This document shows positions 644-41,292 of a stretch of 64,000 nucleotides of DNA, one piece after another. A program made the position numbers and the translations under genes. The notes beneath the pieces were generated by a model, which ran no database searches, was not told where the DNA came from, and saw only the letters and a program-made list of their open reading frames with translations. The stretch is from an uncultured Gammaproteobacteria bacterium (GTDB taxonomy: Bacteria; Cyanobacteriota; Vampirovibrionia; LMEP-6097): the NCBI GenBank assembly GCA_964551135.1, contig CAZKAT010000005.1, positions 198,522-262,521 on the forward strand. Direction: 5' to 3'. How positions within the stretch are numbered: position 1 is the stretch's first letter; every line of letters begins with the position of its first letter.

Positions 644-1456
644 ATGAAACAACCTTCAATACTAGTGTTCATACCAATGTATAACTGTGAGAAGCAGATA
701 GTAAGGGTACTGGCCAAGTTTGATGAAGAAACTCAAGCTCTTTTTTCTGAGATTTTAGCGGTTGATAATGGTAGTAAAGATAGAACTTTAGAAGCTACAG
801 AGCAAGCTTTTAAGAATTTAAAGCAAATCAAGACCACGCTGGTACAGAATGTAGATAATTATAGTCTTGGTGGTTCTCATAAAGTAGCTTTTAATTATGC
901 ACTTGCTAATAACTATGATTATGTTGTAGTTCTTCATGGGGATGATCAAGGTGATATCCATGATTTAATACCTTATATTAAGAATGGTGAATACCAAAAT
1001 TACGATTCTATCTTGGGTGCAAGATTTGCTAAAGGATCTAAATTAGTAGGTTATTCATTAATTCGAATCTTAGGTAATTGGGGACTTAATGCTTTCTGCT
1101 CAATAGCTACTGGCAAATGGGTTGCAGATATGGGATCTGGTTTAAATATGTATAAGACAAGCTATTTAAAAGATAGATTTTATCTCTATTTCCCTAATAC
1201 TTTAGCTTATAACGTTTATATGCTTTTTTATGGTATTCATACTAAATCAAAGTTCAAGTTTTTTCCTTTAACCTGGAGAGAAGAAGACCAAGTTAGTAAC
1301 GCTAAGATTTTTGATGTGGGATATAAGATTCTGAAATTGATTATGAAATATATTTTCAAACGTAAGGAATTATTCTCGCGTGAACCAAACCAATTCTCGG
1401 TGATTGATTATCAATCTAGGACTGTGTTTCAGAAAGAAGCTTTTGCAAAGACTTAA
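644..1456 (+). CDS. Family-2 glycosyltransferase, a DPM1/ArnC/GtrB-like polyprenol-phosphate sugar synthase type.
   Basis: Typical GT2 N-terminus (LVFIPMYNCEKQI), a DNGS (DxD-like) motif and HGDDQ. About 60% identical to the ORF at 20876..21685. The 3' end overlaps the SDR gene by 4 nt in a convergent arrangement. Confidence 0.8.
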   Translation: MKQPSILVFIPMYNCEKQIVRVLAKFDEETQALFSEILAVDNGSKDRTLEATEQAFKNLKQIKTTLVQNVDNYSLGGSHKVAFNYALANNYDYVVVLHGDDQGDIHDLIPYIKNGEYQNYDSILGARFAKGSKLVGYSLIRILGNWGLNAFCSIATGKWVADMGSGLNMYKTSYLKDRFYLYFPNTLAYNVYMLFYGIHTKSKFKFFPLTWREEDQVSNAKIFDVGYKILKLIMKYIFKRKELFSREPNQFSVIDYQSRTVFQKEAFAKT

Positions 1457-2130
1457 TTATGCCACTCTAAAGTCGGGAATAATTTAATAGTCTTGAATTC
1501 TATATTTGCTGGGCTGTTTACTATATAGCTTATTAGTTTGCTTATTTCTTGTGTAGGCATAGCTTCTGTTACATCTCCACATGGATATGGATTACTAGGA
1601 TTCCAAAGAGGTGTATTAATTCCGCCTGGATGAATACTAACTACTTTAATTCCTTTACTACGAAGTTCCTTGCCTAATACTCCGGCAAATCCAGTCAGTG
1701 CATACTTAGATGCGCAGTAGATGGACTGTTTCTCTAATTCTTCTAAGCCTGCAACTGAATTGATAAATATAATTCGACTATCTTTAGATAGTAAGTCGAT
1801 AGCATATTTGCAAACATAGAGAGCACCTTTGAGATTGGTATCAATAATGCTGTTAATAGTATCTATATCTGTGTCACAAAACTCTGCCATCGTAAAAGTA
1901 GCTGCATTATTTATTAGTAAGTCTATTGATTCATTTTTAAGTCCTGCAAACGCAGCTTGAACTGATTTGTGATCTTTAATATCAACGATCTTTTGTATAT
2001 AGTTCTTAGAGTCAATTGCAGCTGGCTTTCTTGATAAACCGATAACTCGCCAACCCTCATTTGTAAAATGACGAGCAAGTTCCAAACCCAATCCACTACT
2101 GCTTCCGGTAATGACTACTGTCTTAGGCAT
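1453..2130 (-). CDS. Short-chain dehydrogenase/reductase (SDR) family oxidoreductase.
   Basis: TGSSSGLGLEL Rossmann motif, NNAA motif and the YxxxK catalytic dyad (YCASK). I moved the start to the internal ATG at 2130 (MPKTVVITG) so the gene no longer overlaps the upstream cyclase gene. Confidence 0.85.
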   Translation of the reverse strand: MPKTVVITGSSSGLGLELARHFTNEGWRVIGLSRKPAAIDSKNYIQKIVDIKDHKSVQAAFAGLKNESIDLLINNAATFTMAEFCDTDIDTINSIIDTNLKGALYVCKYAIDLLSKDSRIIFINSVAGLEELEKQSIYCASKYALTGFAGVLGKELRSKGIKVVSIHPGGINTPLWNPSNPYPCGDVTEAMPTQEISKLISYIVNSPANIEFKTIKLFPTLEWHN

Positions 2131-3268
2131 TACACATCCTTTCGTATAATTCTGCTGCTGCTTTAATCTCTTCGACTCTAACATCGTTAAGTATTCTATA
2201 ATTGCCTATCGCTATTGGCACGGGTAAGTATTGATTATCATTTCTATGTTTGCAAGTATCAGCTAAGGCTTCCTGTAATAGATCAATATTGGTGAAGTCT
2301 TTATGGTAAGTTGGTAACCTTAGATTCTTGGCAGTTTTAAATATGCGTAATAAATCCTTGTCATTTAAATATTGACGATTATGTGCCAAGCAAGAGCTAA
2401 GCAAACAATCCATAACTACAGCTTCACCATGAAATATATGTGGAAGATTTCTCATTTCAATTAATGGACTAAATGAATGTCCAAAATCAACACAACGCTC
2501 TAACTTCTTCTCCCAAAGATTCGGAGCTAACTCATCTATCATGCCAGTAATAGCAAGGTTAATGACGCGTACTGGTACTGCACCAAACTGAAACTTCTCG
2601 TCTATCAATTGGTCATAGTTTACTTCTAGTAGTTCAAACAAAGTACTATCTTTAATAAGTGCCAGTTTGAATATCTCTGCAAGTCCGTTGACTATCTCTC
2701 TTTGTTCTTGAGTGTTGATGAATTTCTTATCGATTAATGCTGCAATAGGAGGATAATAACTACCTAAGCGGTTTCTTCTATCTAAGTGATTGATTCCAGT
2801 TTTAGAACCAACACTAGCATCTACTATCGCAAGTAAGGTTGTAGGTACTTTTACGTAAGGTATACCTCTTCTATAAATGCTGGCACAGAATCCCACTAGA
2901 TCCAGTAAAACACCGCCACCTATTGCAATTACGGGTTCTGCACGACGCAGTATGCCTGCTTCTTCAAAAAACTTTAAAACATGATCAGTATTTTCCCAAT
3001 TCTTGTCTTCTTCTTTTGCATCAATAACGCATATTTTCAATTCTGTTTTTAGTGTTGAGAAGTAATTTTTTATATCATCACCATAGAGTTTATAAACGGT
3101 TTTATCAATAACGATTATGCGTCTATTGGAGCTGCCATAATTAAGCAAGTCATGATTATTAGGATTAAAAACATCACTTGAGTATTTTATAGAAAATGAT
3201 ACTGGCAACTCTGCTTGAACAGACCATGCTCTCTTGTAATTATCGAAATTAATTAATATATTTTCCAT
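2123..3268 (-). CDS. Sugar-phosphate cyclase of the 3-dehydroquinate-synthase superfamily (DHQS / EEVS / DOIS-like).
   Basis: GGGVLLDLVGF nucleotide-binding loop, VPTTLLAIVDASVGSKTGIN, and the metal-ligand block VDFGHSF...HGEAVVMD, which follows the DHQS LNFGHT...HGEAVAIG pattern. The start codon shares one nucleotide with the upstream kinase stop (TAATG). Confidence 0.75.
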   Translation of the reverse strand: MENILINFDNYKRAWSVQAELPVSFSIKYSSDVFNPNNHDLLNYGSSNRRIIVIDKTVYKLYGDDIKNYFSTLKTELKICVIDAKEEDKNWENTDHVLKFFEEAGILRRAEPVIAIGGGVLLDLVGFCASIYRRGIPYVKVPTTLLAIVDASVGSKTGINHLDRRNRLGSYYPPIAALIDKKFINTQEQREIVNGLAEIFKLALIKDSTLFELLEVNYDQLIDEKFQFGAVPVRVINLAITGMIDELAPNLWEKKLERCVDFGHSFSPLIEMRNLPHIFHGEAVVMDCLLSSCLAHNRQYLNDKDLLRIFKTAKNLRLPTYHKDFTNIDLLQEALADTCKHRNDNQYLPVPIAIGNYRILNDVRVEEIKAAAELYERMCNA

Positions 3269-4233
3269 TAGTTATAAATTTTACTCAATAAATAGCAAGC
3301 GTGCACATAAAAAAACTTCGCATCATTAAGATTGCCTGCGTAACATTTGAAGGGTAACATTCTAATAAATTGAGTTGCTTCAAGTATATTCACCAATAGC
3401 ATTTCCTTATCATTTAATTCTTGTTTAAGTCTTCCTTCAAAACAAGAATTAAAACTATTAAAGGATGGAGGTATGCTTAAGTTATGTGATACAGTATTCC
3501 CTTGAACTTGCTTTTCATTATCATTCAAGAAACCATAATGACTACGACTGCATTGTAAGACTTGTGAATAATCAAGAAACTTAGAGTCAATAATGCTCTC
3601 TTCATATAAGTCAATAAAAACTATTCGATTCTCTTTCTCTATATAAAGAGTGTTTTCTAAGGTTGGATTACCATGAATAAATTGTTCTTCTGGAAGATTA
3701 ATATGACTAAAAAAAGTTTCTAGTTTATGGAAATGATTTTCTAAGTTAGGAACAGTTTGTCCATTATAAGAGTATATTTCATAGTTACAAAAATCTGAAA
3801 ATTCTTTTGATGCTTGTTTGGCATCTGCAAGTTTTTGACTAACCTCTTCCTTGAAATAAAGTGAGCAAGCTCCTTTGTTAGCAGCAAAAGTCATGGAGTG
3901 TAGTTCATTAAATGCAGACCAAAGTGCAGAGTTAATTTTTTCAATTTCATTTATTTCTAGATTCTTGTTTATAAAAAGATTCTTGATATCTACAGCATCA
4001 GGGAAGTATTCAATATCAAAATATGCTCTATCACCCTTGTAACCTACTTCTAATACTTTGGGAAACAGGTCAGGGAAGCTCTTTGCGTAACGCTGTAGTT
4101 TTTTTAATTGAGAATACCAGCGCACGTAACCGTATTCACGATCAGATTTGGTGCTAATTTCTTTGCGTATAAAACGTTGGTCCACCAAAAAGGTTGAACT
4201 CAAGGAGCCACCTTTTAATTGCACTATACTCAT
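3268..4233 (-). CDS. Protein with the kinase fold of the aminoglycoside phosphotransferase / choline kinase / AmgK family.
   Basis: Gly-rich loop LKGGSLSSTF. The Brenner-like catalytic loop reads IHGNPTLEN, with Asn where the canonical Asp sits. A FIDLYEE (DFG/DxE-like) segment follows. Its stop overlaps the cyclase start, and the upstream nucleotidyltransferase stop overlaps its start. Confidence 0.6.
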   Translation of the reverse strand: MSIVQLKGGSLSSTFLVDQRFIRKEISTKSDREYGYVRWYSQLKKLQRYAKSFPDLFPKVLEVGYKGDRAYFDIEYFPDAVDIKNLFINKNLEINEIEKINSALWSAFNELHSMTFAANKGACSLYFKEEVSQKLADAKQASKEFSDFCNYEIYSYNGQTVPNLENHFHKLETFFSHINLPEEQFIHGNPTLENTLYIEKENRIVFIDLYEESIIDSKFLDYSQVLQCSRSHYGFLNDNEKQVQGNTVSHNLSIPPSFNSFNSCFEGRLKQELNDKEMLLVNILEATQFIRMLPFKCYAGNLNDAKFFYVHACYLLSKIYN

Positions 4234-4964
4234 AAGTTAAGTCTTTTCTTAGCCAGTTCAATTCCATACTCTTGCGGGCTACCGAGAACTATTGTTTCAG
4301 GGAAATGTTCTAGTTCATTTACTGCAATAGTTTTACCATTGCTAAGCATATGAGACATTACGTTTGAAATATATAACTCAGTATCTTTAGCTATGCTGTC
4401 AGAAAAAATATTGTAATTCTCTAAATATGAATTGGCACTTTGAAAACAATACAAGCCAGAACTAGCGAAAGGAGAAATAGCTTTTTTCTCTGCTATCTCT
4501 ACTACCTTACCATCAGAGGATTTGATATAACAATATTTAGGTGAGTTAGCTATGAACACGTCTATAAAAGCATCGTGTTTTTTCAAGGCTTCTTCAATTT
4601 TATTGAAATCGCGATTAATTAATATAGTGTCAGCGTTGTGAATAAAAAGAGGTGCCTTATGATCAGCAACTAATTGAGCACCAATTGCAGCTGTTTCAGC
4701 TTGACCTGTAGTATCCCCAATATAATATATACTTTCTTCATTTAAGCCTAGTGGTTCGATGTTTTCTAATAATTTATTCTTAAAATAGGAATCTCTTTTA
4801 TTAGCAAGTAAAATTACCTGACCAAAATCATAACCTTTCATCAGGTCATTTAATAGTTCTTGAATTATAGTAGTTTCACCCCATGGCAATAAATACTTAG
4901 GAATGTCGAAACCGACATCATGAAATCTTGTATTTAAGCCAGCCATGCATATTATTAAAGCCAT
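4230..4964 (-). CDS. Sugar-phosphate or alcohol-phosphate nucleotidyltransferase (LicC / MurU / IspD-like NTP-transferase fold).
   Basis: N-terminal MAGLNTRF aligns to the (A)AGxGTRL nucleotidyltransferase signature with a Gly-to-Asn change. Size and layout match small nucleotidyltransferases. It is translationally coupled to the kinase gene. Confidence 0.6.
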   Translation of the reverse strand: MALIICMAGLNTRFHDVGFDIPKYLLPWGETTIIQELLNDLMKGYDFGQVILLANKRDSYFKNKLLENIEPLGLNEESIYYIGDTTGQAETAAIGAQLVADHKAPLFIHNADTILINRDFNKIEEALKKHDAFIDVFIANSPKYCYIKSSDGKVVEIAEKKAISPFASSGLYCFQSANSYLENYNIFSDSIAKDTELYISNVMSHMLSNGKTIAVNELEHFPETIVLGSPQEYGIELAKKRLNL

Positions 4965-5954: not shown

Positions 5955-6641
5955 TTAATCTATCCAACCTTGTTCTTTTGCATAAGCCTTAAGTTTATCG
6001 AAATTAGACATGGTTTCTTTAATATAATTCAACTCAAAAATTCTTGAACCTGGAGGTATGTCTTTAATAGCGAGATCAAAAAAATCTAAGAATTCTGTTA
6101 CAAGTTCTTTTTCATCTACGCAATAATAAGCCACACAAGTCCTACCCTCTATAACAAGATCATCATGATCATTATTGTTCTTTGTCATTGCTTCTATCAA
6201 AAAATTAATATCCTGAATAGTTTCTATTCTATATGTTCCATCATCATTATAGGGCGCTCCTAATTTCTCTTGACCGTAAAATCCAAATGAAGCATAGAAA
6301 TTAGCTTGATACGGATTTCTTATAACTGTTAATTTAAGTCCATAGGCTTCCTCATAATACTCGGAAAAAACAAACTTACTTAGGTCATCTTGGTCATTAT
6401 TTATAAAAAACTGTATTAAACACATTATGCAAAATATTGCACAAGAAACATAATAACCATGACCTACCATAGTTAAAGCTTTGCCGTCGTATTCACGTTC
6501 CCATGCGAATTGGCCATAATTAGGTATGTTAGAATCACAGGGTTTTTCTCTATTAGTAATTTGAAAGAAGGGTTCCCTATCGTAATTTTTAAAATAACCA
6601 TTAACTACATCGATAGGTTTTTTACGAGTTATATTAAACAT
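5955..6641 (-). CDS. Hypothetical protein co-transcribed directly downstream of the giant gene. It may be a partner or immunity-like protein for the giant protein's C-terminal domain.
   Basis: Its start codon (6641..6639) is separated from the giant gene's TAA stop (6645..6643) by one nucleotide. No recognisable motif. It has one hydrophobic segment (YYVSCAIFCIMCLIQFFI). Confidence 0.5.
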   Translation of the reverse strand: MFNITRKKPIDVVNGYFKNYDREPFFQITNREKPCDSNIPNYGQFAWEREYDGKALTMVGHGYYVSCAIFCIMCLIQFFINNDQDDLSKFVFSEYYEEAYGLKLTVIRNPYQANFYASFGFYGQEKLGAPYNDDGTYRIETIQDINFLIEAMTKNNNDHDDLVIEGRTCVAYYCVDEKELVTEFLDFFDLAIKDIPPGSRIFELNYIKETMSNFDKLKAYAKEQGWID

Positions 6642-33271: not shown

Positions 33272-33327
33272 TTTCTAGTTTAGTTTATCATTTTTGTGAA
33301 GTAATAAGTGCCATCTTCTCCAAAATC

Positions 33328-34224
33328 CTACCTCTTTGCTACACACATTAGCCCAGTACTGTTCCCTATAAGTCCCTGTAAAAATGCCACTGGGATAAAA
33401 GCCAGACTTAATGGAACCATATAGAATGACATACCATTTCTTAATTGACTATGAAATAACTTAGTATCTTGAAGCATATTCTGTATGGATATAGCCCACT
33501 GAGCTGGATCTAGGTCTGTATAAAATTTAGTAGTAGAAAATTTGCAATTATCAGCTATGAGTTGAAGATTTTGCTTATTGAATAGATGTATATGTCTTGG
33601 AATATGTAATCCTGCCCAATATTTACCAAAGATTGCAAACTCAATTGCTTTAGTATTAGGAGTGAATAAGATTATTTGTCCAGAAGGATTAAGTTTAGCG
33701 TAGCAATTCTTCATAACGGCTATTGGATCAAGGAAGTGTTCTATAACATTATTGAGCAAGATGATATCAAACTTCTCTGCAAAAGGAATTTCCTGTTCTA
33801 CATTGGCTATTTTGACTTGAACCCCATTGTCCATCAGCCTTGCAGCTGCAGCACTACTAAAATCACAGCCGTATAAATTCTGATAACCTAGATCTTTAAA
33901 TGCCATTAACAACTCTCCATTGCCATAGCCAATTTCTAGAATTTTAGAATCCTTGTTGAAAAACTTAGTGAGTTTTTTTGCTTGGTTGCGGAATTTTATT
34001 TTTTTAAGCTGAGAAAAAACTCCTGAGCCGATTGGCAAATAATTCCTATACTCAGATGGATAAAAGCTGCTAATGTCATTAAGCTTAGGAAGCGGCTTTT
34101 GGTATATTAATCCGCAGTTACTACATTGATAGAGGTCAATTGGACTGCAGGTTTCATACTCCCAGTCCTTAAGTCCTGTAAATTTAATGGTGTCTTGATT
34201 GCAACTACAGACAATACAGCTCAT
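33328..34224 (-). CDS. Class I SAM-dependent methyltransferase with an N-terminal Cys4 zinc-ribbon.
   Basis: N-terminal CIVCSC...CSNCG (CxxC...CxxC). Motif I ILEIGYGNGELL and motif II GCDFS. Confidence 0.7.
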   Translation of the reverse strand: MSCIVCSCNQDTIKFTGLKDWEYETCSPIDLYQCSNCGLIYQKPLPKLNDISSFYPSEYRNYLPIGSGVFSQLKKIKFRNQAKKLTKFFNKDSKILEIGYGNGELLMAFKDLGYQNLYGCDFSSAAAARLMDNGVQVKIANVEQEIPFAEKFDIILLNNVIEHFLDPIAVMKNCYAKLNPSGQIILFTPNTKAIEFAIFGKYWAGLHIPRHIHLFNKQNLQLIADNCKFSTTKFYTDLDPAQWAISIQNMLQDTKLFHSQLRNGMSFYMVPLSLAFIPVAFLQGLIGNSTGLMCVAKR

Positions 34225-34914
34225 CTAATGATTCGCAACTCCTGCCTTGTAATCGACGTTATATTCATTATTAGGTATGACTACTGTACTAACATCAGGT
34301 CTAAACATACCTTCATTTTTAATTGTTGGTAGAGAAGGCACTGGCGGCTCAAAAATATATGGACCAGGATTGAGATCAGCAGGTTTAGTTTGTTTCTTAT
34401 TGATCCAGTCTATGCCATGGAAATCCTTAAATCCTAGAGTATGAACTTTCCATCTTCTGTTTCTCATTGGCACATCTTCAGCCCAAGCATTCTTTAACCA
34501 AGAACTGAATACGACTCTAAATGCAGGTTGAAGAAAACCCATCCAGCTAGGTACATGCATATTGTAATAAATTTTCATTCTTGATCTATTATTAGGCAGA
34601 TCAAAGAAGTGTACTTCCATATCTAGCATGCCATAGAGATCCTTATGAACAGTTCTCATAATGTGTGGTTCAGGCATAAATTGGAAACCTATCCCTTCGT
34701 TCTCAAAAGGTACTACAGGAATCTTCGCTCTTCTGTAAACTAGTGCCCAATCATCTCTTTCAGCTAAGATTCTTGCTTCTCTATAAAGCTTCTGGTGAGT
34801 ACCAAGTAAGTGTTCATGGTCATAATAATTCCACATTATTACTTCCTTCGGGCAATCTTGTTCTAGCTCTAATTCTAAAGTAAGTTTAGTTCTACCATTG
34901 TCGTTTTTTGCCAT
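34225..34914 (-). CDS. Rieske-type non-heme-iron oxygenase catalytic domain, encoded separately from its Rieske domain.
   Basis: The mononuclear iron motif D-x2-H-x4-H is present as YYDHEHLLGTH (D32, H35, H40). The ATG lies 5 nt after the stop of the Rieske-domain ORF, in a different frame. Confidence 0.55.
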   Translation of the reverse strand: MAKNDNGRTKLTLELELEQDCPKEVIMWNYYDHEHLLGTHQKLYREARILAERDDWALVYRRAKIPVVPFENEGIGFQFMPEPHIMRTVHKDLYGMLDMEVHFFDLPNNRSRMKIYYNMHVPSWMGFLQPAFRVVFSSWLKNAWAEDVPMRNRRWKVHTLGFKDFHGIDWINKKQTKPADLNPGPYIFEPPVPSLPTIKNEGMFRPDVSTVVIPNNEYNVDYKAGVANH

Positions 34915-34919
34915 AAAAA

Positions 34920-35318
34920 TTATCCTAATAAGTTTACATAAACTTTATTACCATCAACCTTAAGTTGATACTGTCTTAAAGGCAAGCCTGGATTAGTTTT
35001 ACATGAACCATCAGCACAGGAGAATTGCCAATTATGCCAAAGACAAGTAAACACTCCATCCTTAGCCTTACGATAGCCTACTGGTCCACCAAAATGAGGG
35101 CAAATATTGCTGATAGCTTTCAATTCACCTTCATGTTTATAAAGCAAAATATCGTGATCATTAATCCAACGTGATAATTGTCCATGTGGCTCAAGTTCGT
35201 CTATAGTTGCCAAGAATTGAAAATCTTGTCCCTGTTGGTTTTGATTTTTAACTGTTAATAATGTATCTTCGCTAACCATTTCAATCCAGGATTGTAACAC
35301 AGCAGGCTTAATTTTCAA
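34920..35318 (-). CDS. Rieske [2Fe-2S] domain protein, the N-terminal half of the split oxygenase.
   Basis: CPHFGGPV...(17 aa)...CLWHNWQF gives the canonical CxH-x15-17-CxxH Rieske ligand pattern. Confidence 0.8.
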   Translation of the reverse strand: MKIKPAVLQSWIEMVSEDTLLTVKNQNQQGQDFQFLATIDELEPHGQLSRWINDHDILLYKHEGELKAISNICPHFGGPVGYRKAKDGVFTCLWHNWQFSCADGSCKTNPGLPLRQYQLKVDGNKVYVNLLG

Positions 35319-35337: not shown

Positions 35338-37098
35338 TTAAGACCCATTCTTTATTTTATCAAGATCGATAATGGCATAGCCAATTCTTTTCTCAGCCAT
35401 AAATCTTTCTAAGAAAAAAGATTCTCCTGGATTGAGTTTAACTAGTTCTTGAGATAAAGCATTATATGGTTCTAAGTAGACAGGATTATTAATATAAGGT
35501 TGTTGATAGAAATTATATAAAGCCAGAAAATAATTTATGTGATTGGCATCAGCAAGTTTAACAAACTCATCTCTAGACTTGGCATAAGTCATTCTTATAG
35601 CTACTTCATTACGTCTTCTGATTTCAGCAAGAGATTCATGAGTATAAGCCATGCTACGTTCGTAATCTATAAACACTTTGCGTTTACTAGTAATTGAGAC
35701 TGTACTAATATCTGGCAATAGTGGATGGGCGGCAATTAGACTATCTTTAGGAGTTTGTGACAAGACTTCATTAACAGCTGGAGTAACAGAAACATACCTA
35801 GCATGATAAAAGGTACGAGTTATATTCCAATAATAGCCCGTACTAATCAATAAAGCTAGTACAAAAACCTTATCAGCAATTGACTTTGGTAATTCATGAG
35901 ACAGCTGCCATAGCCAGATGCCAACAATTAGAGTTAAGCATATAACAGAAAGTAATAAAGAAGGTACCGCTAGATATCTACTGGGTAAGTATAATACTGG
36001 GAACAGTAATTGTGATGCTATATATAAGGAAATAGCAGCATATAGTAGTGTTGCTGGACTAGAACTAAATATCACAGAAAAAGAATTGTAGAAAATATTT
36101 TTGGTCTTACTGTTTTTTTTAGTATTTATGCCAACTAGTACGAAAAATAAATAAAACAAGCTAGCTACAAAAGCATATTTAATAATAGAGCTAATGGGAA
36201 GGTAACCAATGCCTAGTCCCCAATGTTCATTTTGCCACCAACTACCATCCCAAACAGATGAACCAAATATCGGATGACGTCCTCCAGGATTGAATTCTGG
36301 TAAAGCTTTCATCTCTGCTACAGTGAATGATGTGCCAACACCTTGAGTTTTAATATCTTTGAAAATTACTAGATAAGTAAACGCTACTACTGCTGCATTA
36401 AATAACCAGAGTAAAAATTCTTTGCGTTTAAAATCTATAAAATTAAGACGATATTTAATAATGCCATCAAAAAACTCCATGGCGAAGCAAATTAAGAAAG
36501 CATGCGGACTAACAAAAATACTGATTAGGCATAGTAACCCTGCTGTAATATTTTTGTTAATAAGTTTAAAATACATATAACTCAAGATGCCTAGCCACAC
36601 TAGTGAACGTGAGTGTGCTGCAGAAAGGTGATCAGTACACCATGTAGTCGTTACTAGTGCAGTTGAGAAACATAGAGCCCAGAGATCTATTAATGCAATG
36701 TTAGTACCAAGAATTTTTACTTGATTTAAATTCTTGGTGAAACTTTCATAATGATTAAGTAATGCTTGAAAGAATAAAAACGCAGAAGCTCCTGTTAGGA
36801 TGGCCATGATTAAGGCTAAGAATTTTGAGAAGAAAATTAAGCTTGGAGTAAACAAAGGTGCAAGTTTGTATACCAAAAAAAGTAAAGGAACTCTATAAGT
36901 ATGAGATTCATACATAGGTGCAAAGAAATCATTTTTAAATAATTCTGGATCCCAAAGGCGCCATGTCCAAAACATGCTTTGTCTGAAATCATCCTGTACT
37001 ACCAGCTCATCACCAATAATAGGGCCTAAGATTTGCCAGCTAATAACAAATGCAATGATTGAAGCTAAAATAACATAGTATATTTGAGGTTTTTTCAT
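35338..37098 (-). CDS. Polytopic integral membrane protein (hypothetical). First gene of the oxygenase and methyltransferase operon.
   Basis: 586 aa with more than 10 hydrophobic helices and no recognisable catalytic motif. There is a 19-nt gap to the Rieske gene downstream. Confidence 0.45.
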   Translation of the reverse strand: MKKPQIYYVILASIIAFVISWQILGPIIGDELVVQDDFRQSMFWTWRLWDPELFKNDFFAPMYESHTYRVPLLFLVYKLAPLFTPSLIFFSKFLALIMAILTGASAFLFFQALLNHYESFTKNLNQVKILGTNIALIDLWALCFSTALVTTTWCTDHLSAAHSRSLVWLGILSYMYFKLINKNITAGLLCLISIFVSPHAFLICFAMEFFDGIIKYRLNFIDFKRKEFLLWLFNAAVVAFTYLVIFKDIKTQGVGTSFTVAEMKALPEFNPGGRHPIFGSSVWDGSWWQNEHWGLGIGYLPISSIIKYAFVASLFYLFFVLVGINTKKNSKTKNIFYNSFSVIFSSSPATLLYAAISLYIASQLLFPVLYLPSRYLAVPSLLLSVICLTLIVGIWLWQLSHELPKSIADKVFVLALLISTGYYWNITRTFYHARYVSVTPAVNEVLSQTPKDSLIAAHPLLPDISTVSITSKRKVFIDYERSMAYTHESLAEIRRRNEVAIRMTYAKSRDEFVKLADANHINYFLALYNFYQQPYINNPVYLEPYNALSQELVKLNPGESFFLERFMAEKRIGYAIIDLDKIKNGS

Positions 37099-37146: not shown

Positions 37147-39066
37147 ATGTGCGGAATAGTAGGGTTTACAAGTTTTAAGAATCTGGGTTTTGATAAAGAA
37201 AAAATCCTAACTGCTATGTGCCTTAGTATTGTGCATAGAGGGCCAGATGATGCAGGTATAGAGATCCAGGAGAAGATAAATCTCGGATTTAGAAGGTTAA
37301 GTATTGTTGGTTTAGAAACTGGTCATCAACCGATGTTTTCTTTTGATAAGAAACAGGTCATTGTATTCAACGGTGAAATCTATAATTATAAAGAGTTGAG
37401 AGCTTCATTAGAGAAGCAGGGTTTTCCTTTTAAGACTAATTCAGATACTGAGGTAATTATTAACCTTTATAAAAAATTGGGGCTTGATTTTGTAAAGCAA
37501 CTCAATGGTATGTTTGCTTTTGCTCTCTGGGATATTGATGAAGAGAGGCTCATACTAGCTAGAGATAGAATGGGAGAGAAACCACTCTTCTATCAACGCA
37601 AGGGTAATGAAGTTTTCTTTGCTTCTGAGCTTAAAGCACTGGTTAAGCATCCACATTGCTCGCGTGAGCTATCTAGTGAGGGTCTTAATAAGTATCTTAC
37701 TTATGAATATGTGCCAACGCCCTACACTATCCTTGATCAAGTATGGAAATTAGAAGCAGGTGAGATGGCTGTTATTACTGAACATGAAATGCATAAGAGT
37801 TTTTACTGGCAGCATCCTAATTATGGTTTCCAGGAAGGTACTGTTCATACTGAAAAAGAGGCTATCGAACAGATAGATTCCTTACTTGCTGATTCTATTA
37901 AAATACGTATGCAAGCTGATGTACCTGTAGGAGTGCTGCTTAGTGGTGGTATAGATTCTAGCTTGGTGACTGCAATTGCATCGAAAGTGAAAACCAGTAG
38001 CGAAAGAATTAAAAGTTTCTCTATATATTTTGATGAAGCTAGTTATGATGAATCAAGTTATATCAAGAAGATCGTTTCCAAATATGATCTAGAACATTAT
38101 TCTCAAACAGTTACCTCTAAAGATATGCTTTCTGTCTTTGGTCAGCTCGGTCGTATTATGGATGAGCCTATGGCTGATGCCTCTATAGTACCTACTTACT
38201 TCTTGTCACAGATGACCGCTAAAAATGTGAAGACTGTTATGGGCGGTGACGGTGCAGATGAAATGTTTGCTGGCTATCCAACTTATAGTGCTAATAAATT
38301 AGTGCAAATCTATAATATTATTCCTTATGAGCTTCGCTCTAGATTAACTACCTTATTTAGTAAGGCTCAAGGTTCAATAATCCCCATATCTAATAAAAAT
38401 ATTGCTTTGGACTTTAAGCTTAAGCAGTTTTTTAGAGGTGCAGGTGTGGCTAGTGAAATCCGCTTCTTTAGATGGATGGGTGGCTTTCTTGAGCAAGAGA
38501 AAAAGAACATTCTCAGTGCTCACTATCAGAATAAAATTCTTGGTCAGCTTACCTACTCTGATCTTAATAGATATTTGTCTAGAACTAATATTCATAATGA
38601 AACAGATAGATTACTTTACTTGAGTCAGAAGCTTTATTTAACAGATGATATTTTGGTTAAGTCTGATCGTGCTAGCATGCAGAACTCTCTAGAAATTCGT
38701 TCACCATTTCTAGATCATCGCTTAGTTGAATATGTTTCAATGTTGCCTGATAGGTTTAAATTAAAGACCCTACAAACTAAATATATATTAAAGAAAGTTG
38801 CTGAAAAATATCTTCCAGATGAGGTTATTTATAGACCGAAGAAAGGCTTCGGTATTCCTATAACTCAATGGCTGAGAGAAGATCTTAAGGAGCCAATGCT
38901 GGATTTATTGTCTAAGGATAGACTGGAATCTCAAGGTATTTTTGAATATAGTGGTATTAAGAAGCTTATAGATGATCATCTTGAGCATAAAACTAATAAT
39001 CGTAAATTGCTCTGGGCTTTACTAAGCTTGCAATTATGGATAGAAGAATATAAGCCTAATTTTTAA
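37147..39066 (+). CDS. asnB: Asparagine synthetase (glutamine-hydrolysing), AsnB-like amidotransferase.
   Basis: N-terminal MCGIVGF (class II GATase Cys2 nucleophile). SGGIDSS PP-loop motif. Full-length at about 640 aa. Confidence 0.9.
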   Translation: MCGIVGFTSFKNLGFDKEKILTAMCLSIVHRGPDDAGIEIQEKINLGFRRLSIVGLETGHQPMFSFDKKQVIVFNGEIYNYKELRASLEKQGFPFKTNSDTEVIINLYKKLGLDFVKQLNGMFAFALWDIDEERLILARDRMGEKPLFYQRKGNEVFFASELKALVKHPHCSRELSSEGLNKYLTYEYVPTPYTILDQVWKLEAGEMAVITEHEMHKSFYWQHPNYGFQEGTVHTEKEAIEQIDSLLADSIKIRMQADVPVGVLLSGGIDSSLVTAIASKVKTSSERIKSFSIYFDEASYDESSYIKKIVSKYDLEHYSQTVTSKDMLSVFGQLGRIMDEPMADASIVPTYFLSQMTAKNVKTVMGGDGADEMFAGYPTYSANKLVQIYNIIPYELRSRLTTLFSKAQGSIIPISNKNIALDFKLKQFFRGAGVASEIRFFRWMGGFLEQEKKNILSAHYQNKILGQLTYSDLNRYLSRTNIHNETDRLLYLSQKLYLTDDILVKSDRASMQNSLEIRSPFLDHRLVEYVSMLPDRFKLKTLQTKYILKKVAEKYLPDEVIYRPKKGFGIPITQWLREDLKEPMLDLLSKDRLESQGIFEYSGIKKLIDDHLEHKTNNRKLLWALLSLQLWIEEYKPNF

Positions 39067-39193: not shown

Positions 39194-40225
39194 TTATGCG
39201 TATAATTGATTAATAATTAATGGTTGATGTCTGATATTCAAGTCTCTGAAAATAATTGAAGAGTATATTTTACTATTAGTAATTCTTGTATCTTCCATTA
39301 CTACTGTCTCTTGTAATTCGGAGTTCTCTACTCTGCAACCATCAGCAATAGTAGTGAAAGGTCCAATAATAGAATTGCTGATCTTTACATTCTTGCCGAT
39401 AAACACTGGTCCCATGATATTAGAATCATCTATTACTGTATCGTTATGCACAGCTACATTACCCAGGATATAAGAGTTTCTGACACGTGAATTAACATTG
39501 TCAAACTTGCTTGAATCTATAAGCATAGTTTTATTAGCATCAAGTAAACCAATGCGCGTTCCAGAGTCAAACCAATAAGAGTCAAGTCTTTCTGTTTGTA
39601 CATTGAGTCCTGTTTCTACTTGCAAGGAGATAGCATCAGTAATCTCTAACTCCCCTCTGCCAGAAGGTTTGATTTTGCTAATAGCATCGAATATTTTACT
39701 GTTAAAGAGATAGACTCCGACAATCGCATAGTTAGAAACGAAAGTTTTAGGCTTCTCTACTAAACGTTGAGCCTTGCCACTTTCATCAAACTGCACTACT
39801 CCGAAATCATAAGGACGATCTACTGTCTTAATGAGAATTAAGCTATCAGATTTATTCTTATAGAAAGTCTCTTTTAAATCAACAAGGGGTTTGTCAAAAA
39901 GATTATCACCAAGCAATACCGTGAAATCGGAATTACCAACGAAACTTTTAGTACAATTAATAGCATGTGCTAATCCTAATGGCTCTTCTTGATAAATAAA
40001 ACTTATACGAGCATCGAATTTCGCAGCTGCAATACTTTCTTCGATTTGTTTACCTGTATGTGGGCTGAGAATAATGCAGATCTCATTTATATCTGCACGA
40101 CGCATATAATCAATACAATGAAATAAAATTGGTCTACCTAAAACAGGTACCAATTGTTTCGCATAGTTATTTGTGATAGGAGCGAGGCGCTGTCCTTTAC
40201 CGCCGGATAATATGACACCTTTCAT
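39194..40225 (-). CDS. Sugar-1-phosphate nucleotidyltransferase with a C-terminal left-handed beta-helix domain (RmlA / GMPP / GlmU-like).
   Basis: GVILSGGKGQRLAPIT (GGxGxRL motif). The C-terminal part is rich in hexapeptide-like I/V/L-G-x repeats (VIDDSNIMGPVFIGKNVKISNSIIGPFTTIADGCRVENS). Confidence 0.75.
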   Translation of the reverse strand: MKGVILSGGKGQRLAPITNNYAKQLVPVLGRPILFHCIDYMRRADINEICIILSPHTGKQIEESIAAAKFDARISFIYQEEPLGLAHAINCTKSFVGNSDFTVLLGDNLFDKPLVDLKETFYKNKSDSLILIKTVDRPYDFGVVQFDESGKAQRLVEKPKTFVSNYAIVGVYLFNSKIFDAISKIKPSGRGELEITDAISLQVETGLNVQTERLDSYWFDSGTRIGLLDANKTMLIDSSKFDNVNSRVRNSYILGNVAVHNDTVIDDSNIMGPVFIGKNVKISNSIIGPFTTIADGCRVENSELQETVVMEDTRITNSKIYSSIIFRDLNIRHQPLIINQLYA

Positions 40226-40308
40226 CCTAGTAATATTCCACTTATGTATAGATGTTTAAATATCCTCTATTTGGTGGAGCCTGAGTTCGGGGCATAATAT
40301 AGTAGCCT

Positions 40309-41292
40309 ATGCGTCACGCGAAAAAAATTTTACTCACAGGTTGCAATGGTTTTATTGGAACCAATTTTCTTAATCTTATTTATAAATCTTATCCTGATCT
40401 GGAGATTTTTAATATTGATAATTTAGATTTTGATATATCTAAAAACAATCATAAGGATAAAGATCCAGATAGATATCATTTCGTTCATGGTTCTATTTTG
40501 GATAAAGAATTATTGAATAAAATATTTGTTGCTAATAGATTTGATCAGATCATTAATTTCGCTGCTAACTCGCATGTGGATAATTCTATAACTAACCCAG
40601 AAGCTTTTACTGTTAACAATGTACTTGGTACTCAACGCTTATTAGATATGGCTCTTAAGTTTGAGCCTGAATTATTCTTGCATATTAGCACTGATGAAGT
40701 TTATGGTTCTTTAGATTTCAATTCTCCCTCTACTAAAGAAGATGCTCCTATACAACCTAATAATCCTTACTCAGCTTCTAAGGCTGCTGCTGATTGCCTT
40801 GTAAGATCTTATAATAGAACCTTTAAATTACCTTGTATTATAACTCGTTCTAGTAATAATTTTGGACCTTATCAGTATCCCGAGAAATTTATTCCAGTAG
40901 TTATAAGCAATGCTCTTAATAATCAATCCATCCCTGTCTATGGCACTGGAAACAATGTCAGAGACTGGATTTATGTAGAGGATAATTGTAGAGCTGTAGA
41001 TCTAGTGCGTAATAAAGGACAGATTGGAGAGATCTATAATATTCCTGGACATGAAGAAGTGCAGAATATTGATCTGGCTAAAACTATTCTCCAGGTTTTA
41101 GGTAAGGATGCATCTCTGATTAAGTTTGTAGAAGATCGTAAGGGACATGATCTGCGTTATTCTATGGATGGTTCTAAACTAAAAGCTCTTGGCTTTAAAC
41201 TAGAATCGAGTTTTGAAAATGATTTAGCTAAGACTATTGAATGGTATAAGCTTAATAGCCATTGGCTTAAAGTGAAGCCTGTTTTAGTGTAA
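40309..41292 (+). CDS. rfbB: dTDP-glucose 4,6-dehydratase (extended SDR).
   Basis: ILLTGCNGFIGTNF Rossmann loop, HISTDEVYGS and YSASKAAAD (the TDE...YxxxK catalytic residues typical of RmlB). Confidence 0.8.
   Translation: MRHAKKILLTGCNGFIGTNFLNLIYKSYPDLEIFNIDNLDFDISKNNHKDKDPDRYHFVHGSILDKELLNKIFVANRFDQIINFAANSHVDNSITNPEAFTVNNVLGTQRLLDMALKFEPELFLHISTDEVYGSLDFNSPSTKEDAPIQPNNPYSASKAAADCLVRSYNRTFKLPCIITRSSNNFGPYQYPEKFIPVVISNALNNQSIPVYGTGNNVRDWIYVEDNCRAVDLVRNKGQIGEIYNIPGHEEVQNIDLAKTILQVLGKDASLIKFVEDRKGHDLRYSMDGSKLKALGFKLESSFENDLAKTIEWYKLNSHWLKVKPVLV

What the first reader, a model, noticed from the sequence alone, without database searches (positions are those of the whole stretch)
644..41292. 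Island-level view. A ~40-kb surface-glycoconjugate locus couples a giant PKD adhesin to a cyclitol-type pathway, multiple activation enzymes, GT2/GT-C machinery and tailoring enzymes.
The locus contains one contiguous block with at least four nucleotidyltransferases, two APH-fold kinases, a sugar-phosphate cyclase, a dTDP-glucose 4,6-dehydratase and an AsnB amidotransferase. It also holds a split Rieske oxygenase, two methyltransferases and two or three GT2s, with four large GT-C-like or related membrane proteins. All of these sit physically around a 4220-aa secreted PKD protein and a second PKD/LamG secreted protein. No Wzx/Wzy/Wzz, ABC-transporter or lipid-A genes are visible. The glycan may therefore decorate the giant protein (protein O-glycosylation by PMT/ArnT-like enzymes) rather than form O-antigen. 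A dedicated glycosylation system for a mega-adhesin that uses a carbasugar would be new.
Basis: inference. Interest (0 to 1): 0.7.

Follow-up and report, generated by a model that had tools for sequence, protein, structure and literature searches.

The report
Melainabacterial envelope-glycosylation island with cyclitol cassette
An uncultured freshwater relative of cyanobacteria carries a real ~43-kb gene island for decorating its cell surface, including genes for a ring-shaped sugar mimic that are shared with lake phages, but nothing shows that it serves the giant surface protein inserted in it.

Summary
The gene content is largely as described. The source is a freshwater Melainabacterium MAG (Candidatus Caenarcanales).

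Confirmed:
- An EEVS-type sedoheptulose-7-P cyclase, with ValA as best PDB match and both EEVS fingerprint residues.
- RmlA-long, RmlB, AsnB, two methyltransferases and a split Rieske oxygenase.
- Two paralogous GT2s.
- A 4220-aa PKD protein and a PKD/DUF2341/LamG protein.

Corrections:
- Three nucleotidyltransferases, not four.
- The second "kinase" has no Pfam or PDB match and carries an invariant HGN motif instead of HGD.
- A fifth large membrane protein is cut by the window start.

New results:
- The 737-aa and 765-aa membrane proteins belong to a rare unannotated family that a confident model places in the GT-C fold.
- The best family matches of the one GT2 tested (644-1456), all below threshold, are polyprenyl-phosphate sugar synthases.
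- The nucleotidyltransferase/kinase-like/cyclase/SDR cassette is syntenic, with 43-72% protein identity across its four genes (cyclase 64-72%), in T4-like phage contigs.
- One more distant relative keeps the island, cassette included, without the giant gene, which sits at an inversion breakpoint; two others keep parts of it without the giant gene nearby.

Best reading: a modular GT2 plus GT-C periplasmic glycosylation island. The giant protein is a lineage-specific insertion and only a possible acceptor.

The parts
1..593 (-). N-terminal part of a third paralog (705-727 aa) of the new GT-C family. The rest lies outside the window, and this is the true left end of the island.
   Evidence: L001 12610-14793 matches the 765-aa protein at 30% identity, E 1e-93. 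The window 1-659 ORF carries the family motif 'NNIYPP...NYHYGTDF'.
644..1456 (+). GT2a, a candidate polyprenyl-phosphate sugar (or cyclitol) synthase, adjacent to the cyclitol cassette.
   Evidence: Pfam Glycos_transf_2, E 1e-12. The best NCBIfam hits, all below cut-off, are AglJ, PpgS, Dol-P hexose transferase, PgfS and ArnC. PDB hits are DPMS 5mlz, GtrB 5ekp and ArnC 9bhc. Adjacency to the cassette is conserved in MAG L007.
1453..2184 (-). SDR ketoreductase of the cassette. The likely true start gives 225 aa (1453-2130).
   Evidence: Pfam adh_short, E 2e-38. 43-60% identical and syntenic in phage contigs.
2123..3268 (-). EEVS-type sedoheptulose-7-phosphate cyclase.
   Evidence: ValA (4p53) at E 9e-96 against DDGS at 3e-54 and DHQS at 1e-39 or weaker. 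Both EEVS fingerprint residues are present (ValA D281 and H360). The score is below the NCBIfam aroB cut-off.
3268..4233 (-). Kinase-like protein of the cassette. It belongs to an unannotated family with an invariant 'HGNPTLEN...FID.YEES' motif.
   Evidence: No Pfam, NCBIfam, PDB or PHROG hit. Alignment A1. Weak match to the APH catalytic loop.
4230..4964 (-). Nucleotidyltransferase of the cassette.
   Evidence: Pfam NTP_transferase, E 7.5e-13. 51-59% identical in phage contigs.
5153..5926 (+). Unknown protein with a signal peptide and possible lipobox (MKRLLLFLLIIISC at an internal Met). Part of the giant-gene block.
   Evidence: No family hit. One hydrophobic segment. Sequence.
5955..6641 (-). 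228-aa protein of unknown function. Its start lies 1 nt after the giant gene's stop, so it is in the same transcription unit.
   Evidence: Coordinates. No family or PDB hit.
6643..19305 (-). Giant surface protein of 4220 aa. It has an N-terminal signal peptide, PKD/Ig-like repeats, a two-helix hydrophobic hairpin at about aa 3741-3774 and a 445-aa C-terminal domain of unknown fold.
   Evidence: Pfam PKD_4, E 6e-71. Hydrophobic segments. The C-terminal domain has one homolog in 5.8 billion proteins. 91% identical ortholog in L014.
19456..20847 (+). Secreted PKD + DUF2341 + LamG protein, divergent from the giant gene.
   Evidence: Pfam. Signal segment. Present with the giant gene in L014 and absent from the P0124 contig.
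20876..21685 (-). GT2b, a paralog of GT2a, adjacent to the second activation module.
   Evidence: 63% identity to GT2a. Pfam. Adjacency to the HAD/GatZ module is conserved in the P0124 contig.
21705..22214 (+). KdsC-family HAD sugar-phosphate phosphatase.
   Evidence: TIGR01670, E 6e-19, below cut-off. Pfam Hydrolase_3.
22266..23489 (+). GatZ/KbaZ-like TIM-barrel protein, acting as an aldolase or epimerase on a ketose phosphate.
   Evidence: Pfam PF08013, 31.8 bits against a cut-off of 26.7. 85% identical in L013.
23486..24316 (+). 276-aa protein of unknown function, a conserved member of the module.
   Evidence: No hits. 77-98% identical in L013 and L014.
24319..24666 (+). Cupin related to the type II phosphomannose-isomerase C-terminal domain.
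   Evidence: TIGR01479, E 7.5e-12. Pfam MannoseP_isomer/Cupin_2 in orthologs.
24663..26237 (+). Fused sugar-1-phosphate nucleotidyltransferase and APH-fold kinase with an intact HGD...N motif.
   Evidence: Pfam NTP_transferase + APH. PDB nucleotidyltransferase hits. 68% identical in L013.
26221..28434 (-). Member of a new GT-C fold glycosyltransferase family (737 aa, about 13 TM helices plus a periplasmic C-terminal domain).
28436..30073 (-). PMT/ArnT-like GT-C protein (545 aa). In the loci examined it is present only in the lineage that carries the giant gene.
   Evidence: Pfam PMT, 32.9 bits. Present in L014 and absent from the P0124 contig and L013.
30103..32400 (+). Second in-window paralog of the new GT-C family (765 aa).
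   Evidence: 26% identity over full length to the 737-aa protein, E 6e-57.
32408..34224 (-). Two SAM-dependent methyltransferases (32408-33271 and 33328-34224).
   Evidence: Pfam.
34225..35318 (-). Split Rieske non-heme-iron oxygenase: catalytic part at 34225-34914 and Rieske [2Fe-2S] part at 34920-35318.
   Evidence: Pfam Rieske, E 2.5e-16. D-x2-H-x4-H motif in the partner. The pair is conserved in the P0124 contig.
35338..37098 (-). 586-aa polytopic membrane protein of unknown family, a conserved neighbour of AsnB.
   Evidence: About 10 hydrophobic segments. No Pfam or NCBIfam hit. 75% identical and next to AsnB in L015; also paired with AsnB in the P0124 contig.
37147..39066 (+). AsnB-family glutamine amidotransferase of the exopolysaccharide-associated type.
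   Evidence: TIGR01536 at 491 bits against a cut-off of 267. Best E-value to the XrtA/PEP-CTERM amidotransferase model.
39194..41292 (.). RmlA-long (39194-40225, minus strand) and RmlB dTDP-glucose 4,6-dehydratase (40309-41292, plus strand). This is the right end of the island.
   Evidence: Both score above the NCBIfam equivalog cut-offs. Absent from the P0124 contig.

Best explanation
The region is a modular cell-envelope glycosylation island of an uncultured freshwater Melainabacterium (Candidatus Caenarcanales). It appears to work by the polyprenyl-phosphate 'three-component' route rather than by Wzx/Wzy polymer assembly.

Proposed steps:
1. Cytoplasmic modules make nucleotide-activated units.
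   - RmlA-long and RmlB make a dTDP-6-deoxyhexose precursor.
   - A conserved GatZ-like, HAD phosphatase, 276-aa, cupin and NT-kinase-fusion module makes an unidentified NDP-sugar.
   - A four-gene cassette (EEVS cyclase, SDR, kinase-like protein, nucleotidyltransferase) turns sedoheptulose-7-P into a nucleotide-activated C7-cyclitol.
2. Two paralogous DPM1/ArnC/AglJ-like GT2 enzymes, each next to one activation module, load units onto polyprenyl phosphate.
3. After flipping, up to five polytopic membrane proteins transfer them to periplasmic or surface acceptors. These are three paralogs of a new GT-C family, one PMT-like enzyme and one unassigned protein whose transferase role is assumed, not shown.
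4. An AsnB amidotransferase, two methyltransferases and a split Rieske oxygenase tailor the product.

The giant PKD protein, its coupled 228-aa gene, a putative lipoprotein and the PKD/LamG protein form a lineage-specific block. It is inserted at an inversion breakpoint of this older island. The giant protein may be one acceptor, but the island does not depend on it.

Shown: the gene families, EEVS-type identity, the GT-C fold, the paralogies and the synteny comparisons. Inferred: the polyprenyl-P donors, the pathway order, cyclitol incorporation and the acceptor.
For: - Organism: the cyclase is 93% identical to that of a Candidatus Caenarcanales MAG from Lake Mendota.
- Families.
- EEVS identity.
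- GT2a: the best sub-threshold matches are all polyprenyl-phosphate glycosyltransferases (AglJ, PpgS, Dol-P hexose transferase, PgfS, ArnC), and PDB hits include DPMS, GtrB and ArnC.
- Each GT2 paralog sits beside one activation module, and this pairing recurs in L007 and in the P0124 contig.
- Module conservation among relatives: GatZ-like 85%, 276-aa 77%, cupin 85% and NT-kinase 68% identity in L013. The 586-aa protein and AsnB are 75% and 84% identical and adjacent in L015.
- Giant gene as an insertion: the P0124 contig has the same DUF309/DCC1/flavin-reductase flank and the whole island including NT244 and kinase-like321. It lacks the giant, LamG, PMT-like, RmlA and RmlB genes. Relative to it, the block from GT2b to AsnB is inverted here, and the giant block lies at the junction.
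- No Wzx/Wzy/ABC families were detected.
Against: - No GtrA-like or other small flippase is present in the island.
- All GT2 matches to polyprenyl-P synthases are far below family cut-offs, only GT2a was tested, and the GT2s have no predicted TM helix.
- A saturated carbasugar lacks a ring oxygen. Ordinary glycosyl transfer from an NDP-cyclitol is therefore chemically unfavourable. Known pseudoglycosyltransferases (established knowledge of validamycin and acarbose) use the allylic valienol and belong to other GT families, none of which is present.
- The kinase-like protein has Asn where protein-kinase-like enzymes have the catalytic Asp. The cassette chemistry may therefore differ from kinase followed by nucleotidyltransferase.
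- The 586-aa protein and other unassigned proteins could be a divergent Wzy or ligase.
- Only three more distant relatives' loci and one close relative's locus (L014) could be compared, and one of the distant ones had no DNA available.
Confidence: 0.6

Rival explanations
1. First reader's view. The island is a dedicated protein-glycosylation system for the giant PKD protein and the LamG protein. PMT-like and new-family GT-C enzymes attach a glycan that includes a carbasugar.
For: - The genes are physically adjacent.
- In the loci seen, the PMT-like 545-aa gene occurs only where the giant gene occurs: window and L014 yes, P0124 contig and L013 no.
- In the S. mutans precedent the core pgf genes modify an accessory adhesin inserted next to them (PMC5856776). 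Absence of the giant gene in relatives is therefore not decisive.
Against: - The island, cassette included, is conserved without the giant gene.
- The giant gene is not co-oriented or co-transcribed with any glycosylation gene. It is flanked by a convergent ORF and a divergent gene (coordinates).
- There is no sequon excess.
- The window and L014 are close relatives, so the PMT co-occurrence amounts to a single observation.
Confidence: 0.2
2. The EEVS cassette makes a soluble C7-cyclitol or pseudo-sugar natural product of the validamycin, acarbose or streptol kind. That product would act as a glycosidase inhibitor or signal. On this view the cassette is only a neighbour of the envelope genes.
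For: - All characterised bacterial EEVS enzymes serve secondary metabolites (PMC12904256; PMC4426668).
- The cassette is a self-contained mobile unit. It is found in phage genomes without GT2 or GT-C genes.
- The cyclitol, kinase and nucleotidyltransferase logic parallels the GDP-valienol branch (established knowledge).
Against: - No pseudoglycosyltransferase, aminotransferase or exporter is present here.
- In bacteria the cassette is embedded in the island, next to a GT2, in two independent arrangements (L007 and the P0124 contig).
Confidence: 0.15
3. The giant gene block is a polymorphic-toxin or contact-dependent competition module. It would comprise a giant exoprotein with a C-terminal effector, preceded by a membrane hairpin and followed by an immunity gene. 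It would have landed in a variable surface-glycan locus and be functionally unrelated to it.
For: - The architecture fits: a signal peptide, long Ig-like repeats, a two-helix hairpin at aa 3741-3774 and a 445-aa C-terminal domain of very narrow distribution, with one homolog.
- A 228-aa ORF starts 1 nt after the giant gene's stop.
- The block is lineage-specific and sits at a rearrangement junction.
Against: - No toxin or immunity family is detected by Pfam at E up to 5, or by PDB sequence search.
- No secretion-system genes are nearby.
- The resemblance of the extreme C-terminus to EndoU-type motifs is my impression only and was not supported by any search.
Confidence: 0.08

Closest known systems
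Three-component periplasmic glycosylation systems: polyprenyl-P GT2, flippase and GT-C (GtrA/B/C, ArnC/ArnT, CsbB/GtcA/YfhO, Ppm1/Pmt)
   Same: - Small GT2 enzymes whose nearest matches are DPMS, GtrB, ArnC, AglJ and PpgS.
- Several polytopic GT-C enzymes.
- No Wzx/Wzy genes.
   Different: - No GtrA-type flippase was found.
- There are up to five candidate GT-C genes instead of one.
- Three of them belong to a family with no Pfam model.
- The donors include a presumed cyclitol.
Streptococcus mutans Pgf machinery (cnm-pgfS-pgfM1-pgfE-pgfM2; PMC5856776)
   Same: - A GT-A/GT2 enzyme and PMT-type polytopic proteins are encoded beside an adhesin gene.
- The glycosylation genes are core, and the adhesin is an accessory insertion.
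   Different: - There, cnm is co-transcribed with pgfS and carries a Thr-rich acceptor region.
- Here the giant gene is a separate unit in opposite orientation to its neighbours, and I saw no Ser/Thr-rich acceptor-type region (not scanned by sliding window).
- This organism is a diderm, and the island is ten times larger.
Validamycin and acarbose C7-cyclitol pathways (ValA/AcbC EEVS, cyclitol kinases, ValB/AcbR nucleotidyltransferases giving GDP-valienol)
   Same: - An EEVS-type cyclase at E 9e-96 to ValA with both fingerprint residues.
- A reductase, a phosphotransferase-like protein and a nucleotidyltransferase in one operon.
   Different: - The kinase-like protein is an unannotated family with HGN instead of HGD.
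- There is no dehydratase, epimerase, aminotransferase or GT20/GT5-type pseudoglycosyltransferase.
- The context is envelope genes and phage genomes, not an actinomycete antibiotic cluster.
Oligosaccharyltransferases and other GT-C_A enzymes (PglB, AglB, STT3, DPY19, Pmt, ArnT, AftA)
   Same: - A nearly invariant Asp in an external loop.
   Different: - Sequence identity is 6-13%.
- No WWDYG or DxD motifs were identified.
- The conserved loop follows the fourth rather than the first TM helix.
- No Pfam family matches, apart from one of 49 members touching DUF2298.

Membership tests
EEVS-type sedoheptulose-7-phosphate cyclases (sugar phosphate cyclase superfamily) | DHQS-like two-domain fold | tested here: met
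   Pfam DHQ_synthase, E 1.7e-35, and DHQS_C, E 4e-20.
EEVS-type sedoheptulose-7-phosphate cyclases (sugar phosphate cyclase superfamily) | Closer to ValA than to DDGS, DHQS or DOIS | tested here: met
   ValA 324 bits, DDGS 187.5, best DHQS 139, DOIS 80. The score is below the aroB equivalog cut-off, 214 against 305.
EEVS-type sedoheptulose-7-phosphate cyclases (sugar phosphate cyclase superfamily) | The two fingerprint residues that separate EEVS from DDGS (ValA Asp281 and His360; Kean 2014 as cited in PMC4426668) | tested here: met
   'VDFGHSF' and 'KHR' align to the ValA positions, where DDGS has Ala and Thr. The chain offset of +6 was assumed from the chain length. The other 12 fingerprint positions were not checked, and EEVS cannot be told from EVS.
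EEVS-type sedoheptulose-7-phosphate cyclases (sugar phosphate cyclase superfamily) | Converts sedoheptulose-7-P to 2-epi-5-epi-valiolone | not testable with these tools
   This needs an enzyme assay.
GT-C glycosyltransferases | Polytopic N-terminal TM domain plus extracytoplasmic domain with the GT-C fold | tested here: met
   [not shown]
GT-C glycosyltransferases | Conserved acidic residue in an extracytoplasmic loop near the membrane | tested here: inconclusive
   D121 is at least 90% conserved across 49 members. H124 and D157 are invariant among the 12 closest members. The loop's topology was inferred only from the positive-inside rule, and no superposition on known catalytic residues was done.
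GT-C glycosyltransferases | Membership of a described GT-C sequence family (Pfam or CAZy) | tested here: not met
   No Pfam or NCBIfam hit for the 737-, 765- or 586-aa proteins even at E 5. One of 49 family members hits DUF2298 at E 6e-5.
GT-C glycosyltransferases | Uses a polyprenyl-phosphate-linked donor | not testable with these tools
   Inferred only from the fold and the neighbouring GT2s.
Three-component GT2/flippase/GT-C modification systems | GT2 that makes polyprenyl-P-sugar | tested here: inconclusive
   The top five NCBIfam matches of GT2a are all such enzymes, but at 26-35 bits against cut-offs of 325-529. PDB hits are DPMS at E 3e-6 and GtrB at E 7e-4. GT2b was not searched.
Three-component GT2/flippase/GT-C modification systems | Small GtrA/GtcA-type flippase | tested here: not met
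   No genuine small multi-TM ORF lies within 1-42 kb; the three short candidates overlap larger genes and look spurious. No GtrA Pfam hit.
Wzx/Wzy or ABC-dependent O-antigen/EPS loci | Wzx flippase, Wzy polymerase, Wzz, or Wzm/Wzt transporter | tested here: not met
   None found by Pfam in the ORFs of at least 120 aa scanned across the window, or in the 8 kb to the left. Caveat: divergent Wzy proteins can escape Pfam, and the 586-aa protein is unassigned.
Pgf-type adhesin glycosylation operon | Adhesin gene co-transcribed with the glycosyltransferase genes | tested here: not met
   The giant gene (minus strand) is followed only by the 228-aa ORF and then by a convergent ORF. On its other side it is divergent from the LamG gene (coordinates).
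Pgf-type adhesin glycosylation operon | Acceptor protein shown to be glycosylated, or carrying a Ser/Thr-rich acceptor region | tested here: inconclusive
   S+T is 15.6% overall. N-x-S/T sequons number 51 against 52.9 expected. No sliding-window composition scan was run. Actual glycosylation is not testable here.
Protein-kinase-like / APH phosphotransferases (for 3268-4233) | Match to the family profile | tested here: not met
   No Pfam APH hit at E 5. No PDB hit at E 10. hhalign to the window's own APH domain gives probability 11% and E 0.0027.
Protein-kinase-like / APH phosphotransferases (for 3268-4233) | Catalytic H-x-D...N loop, metal-binding Asp and Lys-Glu pair | tested here: inconclusive
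   K24, E33, N194 and D208 are invariant, but the catalytic Asp position is an invariant Asn ('HGN') in all 7 sequences.
Polymorphic toxin systems (for the giant gene block) | Recognisable C-terminal toxin domain and cognate immunity family | tested here: not met
   No Pfam or PDB match for the C-terminal 446-581 aa or for the 228-aa protein. Only the gene arrangement fits.

The most novel reading that the evidence does not exclude
A nucleotide-activated C7-cyclitol (carbasugar), made by a four-gene EEVS cassette, is built into a cell-surface glycoconjugate through a polyprenyl-phosphate GT2 and a previously undescribed GT-C family. The giant PKD protein may be among the acceptors. The same cassette circulates in T4-like freshwater phages, which would use it to modify the host surface or their own DNA or virions. 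This would be the first EEVS pathway feeding a structural glycoconjugate rather than a soluble natural product, and the first in phages.
Probability: 0.15. Interest if true: 0.85.

Novelty: new variant of a known kind. Interest (0 to 1): 0.55.

Why it matters
All characterised EEVS enzymes feed soluble products: validamycin, acarbose, kirkamide and gadusol. An EEVS cassette embedded in an envelope-glycosylation island, and shared with abundant lake phages, points to an unexplored use of carbasugars at cell surfaces or in phage-host conflict.

The island also reveals a rare GT-C family with a confident model but no annotation. That gives glycobiologists a defined target.

Melainabacteria have almost no experimentally studied envelope biology (my own knowledge, not searched), so even the ordinary reading adds a testable map. 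The giant protein itself adds little, because its link to the island rests on adjacency alone.

Tried and rejected
- A metagenome scan for relatives of the giant protein found none.
- A homolog search with the giant's C-terminal 446 aa found one partial protein with no annotation.
- PDB sequence searches gave nothing useful for the kinase-like protein, the 228-aa ORF, the C-terminal domain, the PMT-like protein, the GatZ-like protein or the 276-aa protein.
- Pfam at E up to 5 and NCBIfam gave no credible match for the eight unassigned proteins; the only hits were three chance-level ones to the kinase-like protein.
- The first structure model, from a 5-sequence alignment, was poor (pLDDT 52). 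Its fold matches were only suggestive. It was replaced by the 49-sequence model.
- hhalign found no relation between the new GT-C family and the 586-aa or 545-aa proteins.
- N-glycosylation sequon enrichment in the giant protein was absent.
- The GenBank phage collection has no close homolog of the cyclase. The best match is 31% identical and is ordinary AroB.
- Literature searches linking EEVS or valiolone with phages or viral auxiliary genes found nothing relevant.
- I considered the ebo cluster, which has an EEVS-like EboD. I set it aside because none of its other genes, such as the UbiA prenyltransferase, is present.
- I considered the hopanoid cyclitol-ether pathway and set it aside for the same reason: there is no HpnI, HpnJ or HpnK.
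- GC content does not mark the giant block as foreign: 0.33 against 0.34-0.35 for the rest of the island.

Full report
**Source and scale**

The window has about 33-38% G+C and no tRNA genes. Its cyclase gene occurs identically on a 188-kb ENA metagenome contig. It is 93% identical to a gene on a contig of a MAG named Candidatus Caenarcanales bacterium from Lake Mendota. That order belongs to the Melainabacteria/Vampirovibriophyceae.

Housekeeping genes bound the island on both sides. To the right of 41.3 kb lie a flavin reductase, a DCC1-like protein, CysD/CysN, IGPS, sulfite reductase and siroheme genes. To the left of the window lie citrate synthase, an amino-acid permease and a polyprenyl synthase.

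**Observation check**

RmlA-long, RmlB and AsnB score above curated cut-offs.

The Rieske protein's 229-aa neighbour has no Pfam hit. It carries the D-x2-H-x4-H iron motif ('DHEHLLGTH'), and the pair recurs in a relative. 'Split Rieske oxygenase' is therefore reasonable.

Corrections:
- I find three nucleotidyltransferases, not four or more.
- Only one APH-fold kinase is verified.
- Two GT2s are present. They are 63% identical paralogs in inverted orientation.
- A fifth large membrane protein is truncated by the window start, so the island begins about 2 kb before coordinate 644.
- No Wzx, Wzy, Wzz, ABC-transporter or lipid-A family was detected anywhere in the 64 kb or in 8 kb to the left.

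**The cyclitol cassette**

[quoted passage not shown] That is far better than its matches to DDGS, DHQS or DOIS. It has the Asp and His that distinguish EEVS from DDGS (fingerprint concept from PMC4426668).

The cyclase lies in a tight, overlapping four-gene unit: nucleotidyltransferase, 321-aa protein, cyclase, SDR. The 321-aa protein has no match in Pfam, NCBIfam, PHROGs or PDB sequences. Seven homologs share a Gly-rich N-terminus, an invariant Lys/Glu pair and 'HGNPTLEN...FID'. That is a kinase-like catalytic loop with Asn in place of the catalytic Asp. Similarity to the window's own APH domain is marginal. I therefore call it kinase-like, not a kinase.

By analogy with the GDP-valienol branch of the validamycin and acarbose pathways (established knowledge), the cassette most likely yields a nucleotide-activated, reduced C7-cyclitol. 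This is inference.

**Unexpected distribution of the cassette**

The 120 best homolog clusters of the cyclase are, apart from one 95%-identical sequence, 68-73% identical and come from environmental metagenomes. Where long contigs exist, the whole cassette is syntenic. Identities are 51-59% for the nucleotidyltransferase, 47-53% for the kinase-like protein, 64-72% for the cyclase and 43-60% for the SDR.

These contigs are phage-like:
- A 160-kb contig carries DnaB, DruA and a Zeta-toxin/AAA_33 protein.
- Another contig carries dozens of small ORFs and a PAAR protein.
- Four IMG/VR contigs carry the cassette. One of them has phage topoisomerase II large and medium subunits and an HNH endonuclease.

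Around the cassette the phages carry further sugar-modifying genes: a 4,6-dehydratase, a DegT aminotransferase, an epimerase, a 2OG oxygenase and radical SAM enzymes. No recognisable glycosyltransferase is present. GenBank phages lack the cassette, and I found no paper describing it.

**The membrane proteins**

The 737-aa and 765-aa proteins are full-length paralogs (26% identity, E 6e-57). The truncated gene at the left edge is a third paralog.

The family is rare. A word-indexed search of 5.8 billion proteins found 4 members. A profile search found 76 representatives among 1.84 billion clusters. None of 49 members hits a known Pfam family, except one marginal DUF2298 hit.

A 49-sequence alignment gave a confident AlphaFold model with pLDDT 91.7 and pTM 0.93.
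- Foldseek against the PDB returned only GT-C enzymes in the top 15. DPY19, PglB, STT3 and AglB scored E 7e-7 to 3.5e-4 at probability 1.0, followed by EmbB, Pmt and ArnT.

The family is therefore GT-C by fold. The acceptor class cannot be read from these rankings.

The 545-aa protein passes the Pfam PMT threshold. The 586-aa protein remains unassigned. It is a conserved neighbour of AsnB in two other loci.

**The GT2s**

GT2a's best matches are AglJ, PpgS, a dolichyl-phosphate hexose transferase, PgfS and ArnC. PDB matches include DPMS, GtrB and ArnC. All of these make polyprenyl-phosphate-linked sugars, but all the scores are sub-threshold. GT2b was not searched separately.

Each paralog sits beside one activation module. 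GT2a is next to the cyclitol cassette, as it also is in MAG L007. GT2b is next to the HAD, GatZ-like, 276-aa, cupin and NT-kinase module, as it also is in the P0124 contig.

Together with the GT-C enzymes and the lack of Wzx/Wzy, this fits the three-component periplasmic modification scheme. No GtrA-like flippase is present.

**Comparative genomics and the giant gene**

- A close relative (L014, 89-98% identity) has the same order, including a 4181-aa giant gene.
- A more distant relative (P0124 contig; GT-C 35% identical) has the same DUF309/DCC1/flavin-reductase flank. After it come GT2, HAD, GatZ-like, 276-aa, cupin, SnoaL, NT-kinase, two GT-C paralogs, a methyltransferase, the Rieske pair, the 575-aa membrane protein, AsnB, a methyltransferase, NT244 and kinase-like321. 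No giant, LamG, PMT-like, RmlA or RmlB gene is present.
- Compared with that order, the block from GT2b to AsnB is inverted in the window. The giant block (LamG, giant, 228-aa, 257-aa) lies exactly at one breakpoint, and RmlA/RmlB lie at the other.
- L013 (GT-C 43% identical) keeps GatZ-like, 276-aa, cupin, NT-kinase and two GT-C genes next to NuoA and FolD, with no giant gene within 10 kb.
- L015 keeps a GT-C paralog, the 584-aa protein and AsnB, with different neighbours.

The island is thus older and more widespread than the giant gene. It is modular and rearranged, as surface-glycan loci usually are.

This does not exclude the giant protein as an acceptor. In S. mutans the core pgf genes glycosylate the accessory adhesin Cnm, which is inserted beside them (PMC5856776). 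There, however, cnm is co-transcribed with pgfS. Here the giant gene forms a unit only with the 228-aa ORF and is flanked by a convergent and a divergent gene. The protein shows no sequon excess.

**The giant protein itself**

It is a genuine 12.6-kb ORF and is conserved in other samples. Its features are a signal peptide, PKD repeats, a two-helix hydrophobic hairpin near residue 3750, and a 445-aa C-terminal domain that has one known homolog.

With the tightly coupled downstream ORF, this arrangement recalls polymorphic toxin and immunity pairs. No search supported that reading, so I keep it as a low-probability rival.

**Verdict**

The island is real, and its enzymology is more interesting than its neighbour. 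My best explanation (confidence about 0.6) is a modular GT2 plus GT-C periplasmic glycosylation island that includes an EEVS-based activated cyclitol module. The giant PKD block is a lineage-specific insertion.

| Reading | Probability |
|---|---|
| Soluble cyclitol product | about 0.15 |
| Toxin module | under 0.1 |

The system is a new variant of a known kind. The novelty lies in three things: the cassette's context and phage distribution, the HGN kinase-like family, and the unannotated GT-C family.

Noticed in passing
L003 8335-11807; L004; L005; L006 8328-11819; L009 8059-11556; L010/L011 8271-11771; L012 6035-9520: The nucleotidyltransferase, kinase-like, EEVS and SDR cassette is syntenic, with 43-72% protein identity across its four genes, in T4-like freshwater phage contigs. 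These contigs carry topoisomerase II subunits, DnaB, HNH and DruA. The cassette is often followed by an 820-906-aa protein with CTP_transf_like and Zeta_toxin/AAA_33 domains and by a DUF6321 protein. More than 100 homolog clusters exist in metagenomes, and none is in cultured-phage GenBank records.
   Followed up: partly
window 3268-4233 (-): A kinase-like family with an invariant 'HGNPTLEN' motif, with Asn where the catalytic Asp of protein-kinase-like phosphotransferases sits. It has no Pfam, NCBIfam, PHROG or PDB match. It may not be a conventional kinase.
   Followed up: partly
window 26221-28434 (-), 30103-32400 (+), 1-593 (-): Three paralogs of a rare GT-C fold family: 76 representatives in 1.84 billion clusters and no Pfam model. 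Conserved features are D121, H124, 'YPP' and 'YHYGxD' in an external loop and 'AGFYGxGG' in the C-terminal domain.
   Followed up: yes
window 6643-7983 (-) and 5955-6641 (-): The giant protein ends with a two-helix hydrophobic hairpin and a 445-aa domain known from only one other sequence. A 228-aa ORF starts 1 nt after its stop. The arrangement resembles a toxin and immunity pair, but no family evidence supports that.
   Followed up: partly
window 35338-39066; L015 12023-15717: The 586-aa polytopic membrane protein and the AsnB-type amidotransferase are a conserved divergent pair. In L015 they are 75% and 84% identical, and they are also paired in the P0124 contig. This suggests a membrane-associated amidation step.
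   Followed up: partly
window 28436-30073 (-): In the loci examined, the PMT-like gene is present only in the two closely related loci that also carry the giant gene, and it is absent from two more distant relatives. This amounts to a single independent observation.
   Followed up: partly
window 54654-61107: A second group of poorly annotated genes, 13 kb to the right of the island. It comprises a 479-aa protein, a 171-aa protein, a DUF1574-like protein (sub-threshold), a 675-aa protein and a 459-aa methyltransferase-domain protein.
   Followed up: no
window 43487-52574: An assimilatory sulfate-reduction and siroheme cluster: CysD, CysN, sulfite reductase, a PAPS reductase and siroheme synthase parts. 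IGPS and a DBI_PRT-like gene are interspersed.
   Followed up: no
L001 20446-21146 (about 7-8 kb left of the window start): A polyprenyl synthase gene lies near the island's left flank. Whether it supplies the lipid carrier is unknown.
   Followed up: no
L013 5273-7710: In a relative's locus, the GT-C pair is flanked by a PIN-domain toxin-antitoxin pair and an HTTM-domain protein. This is consistent with a variable, mobile-element-rich neighbourhood.
   Followed up: no
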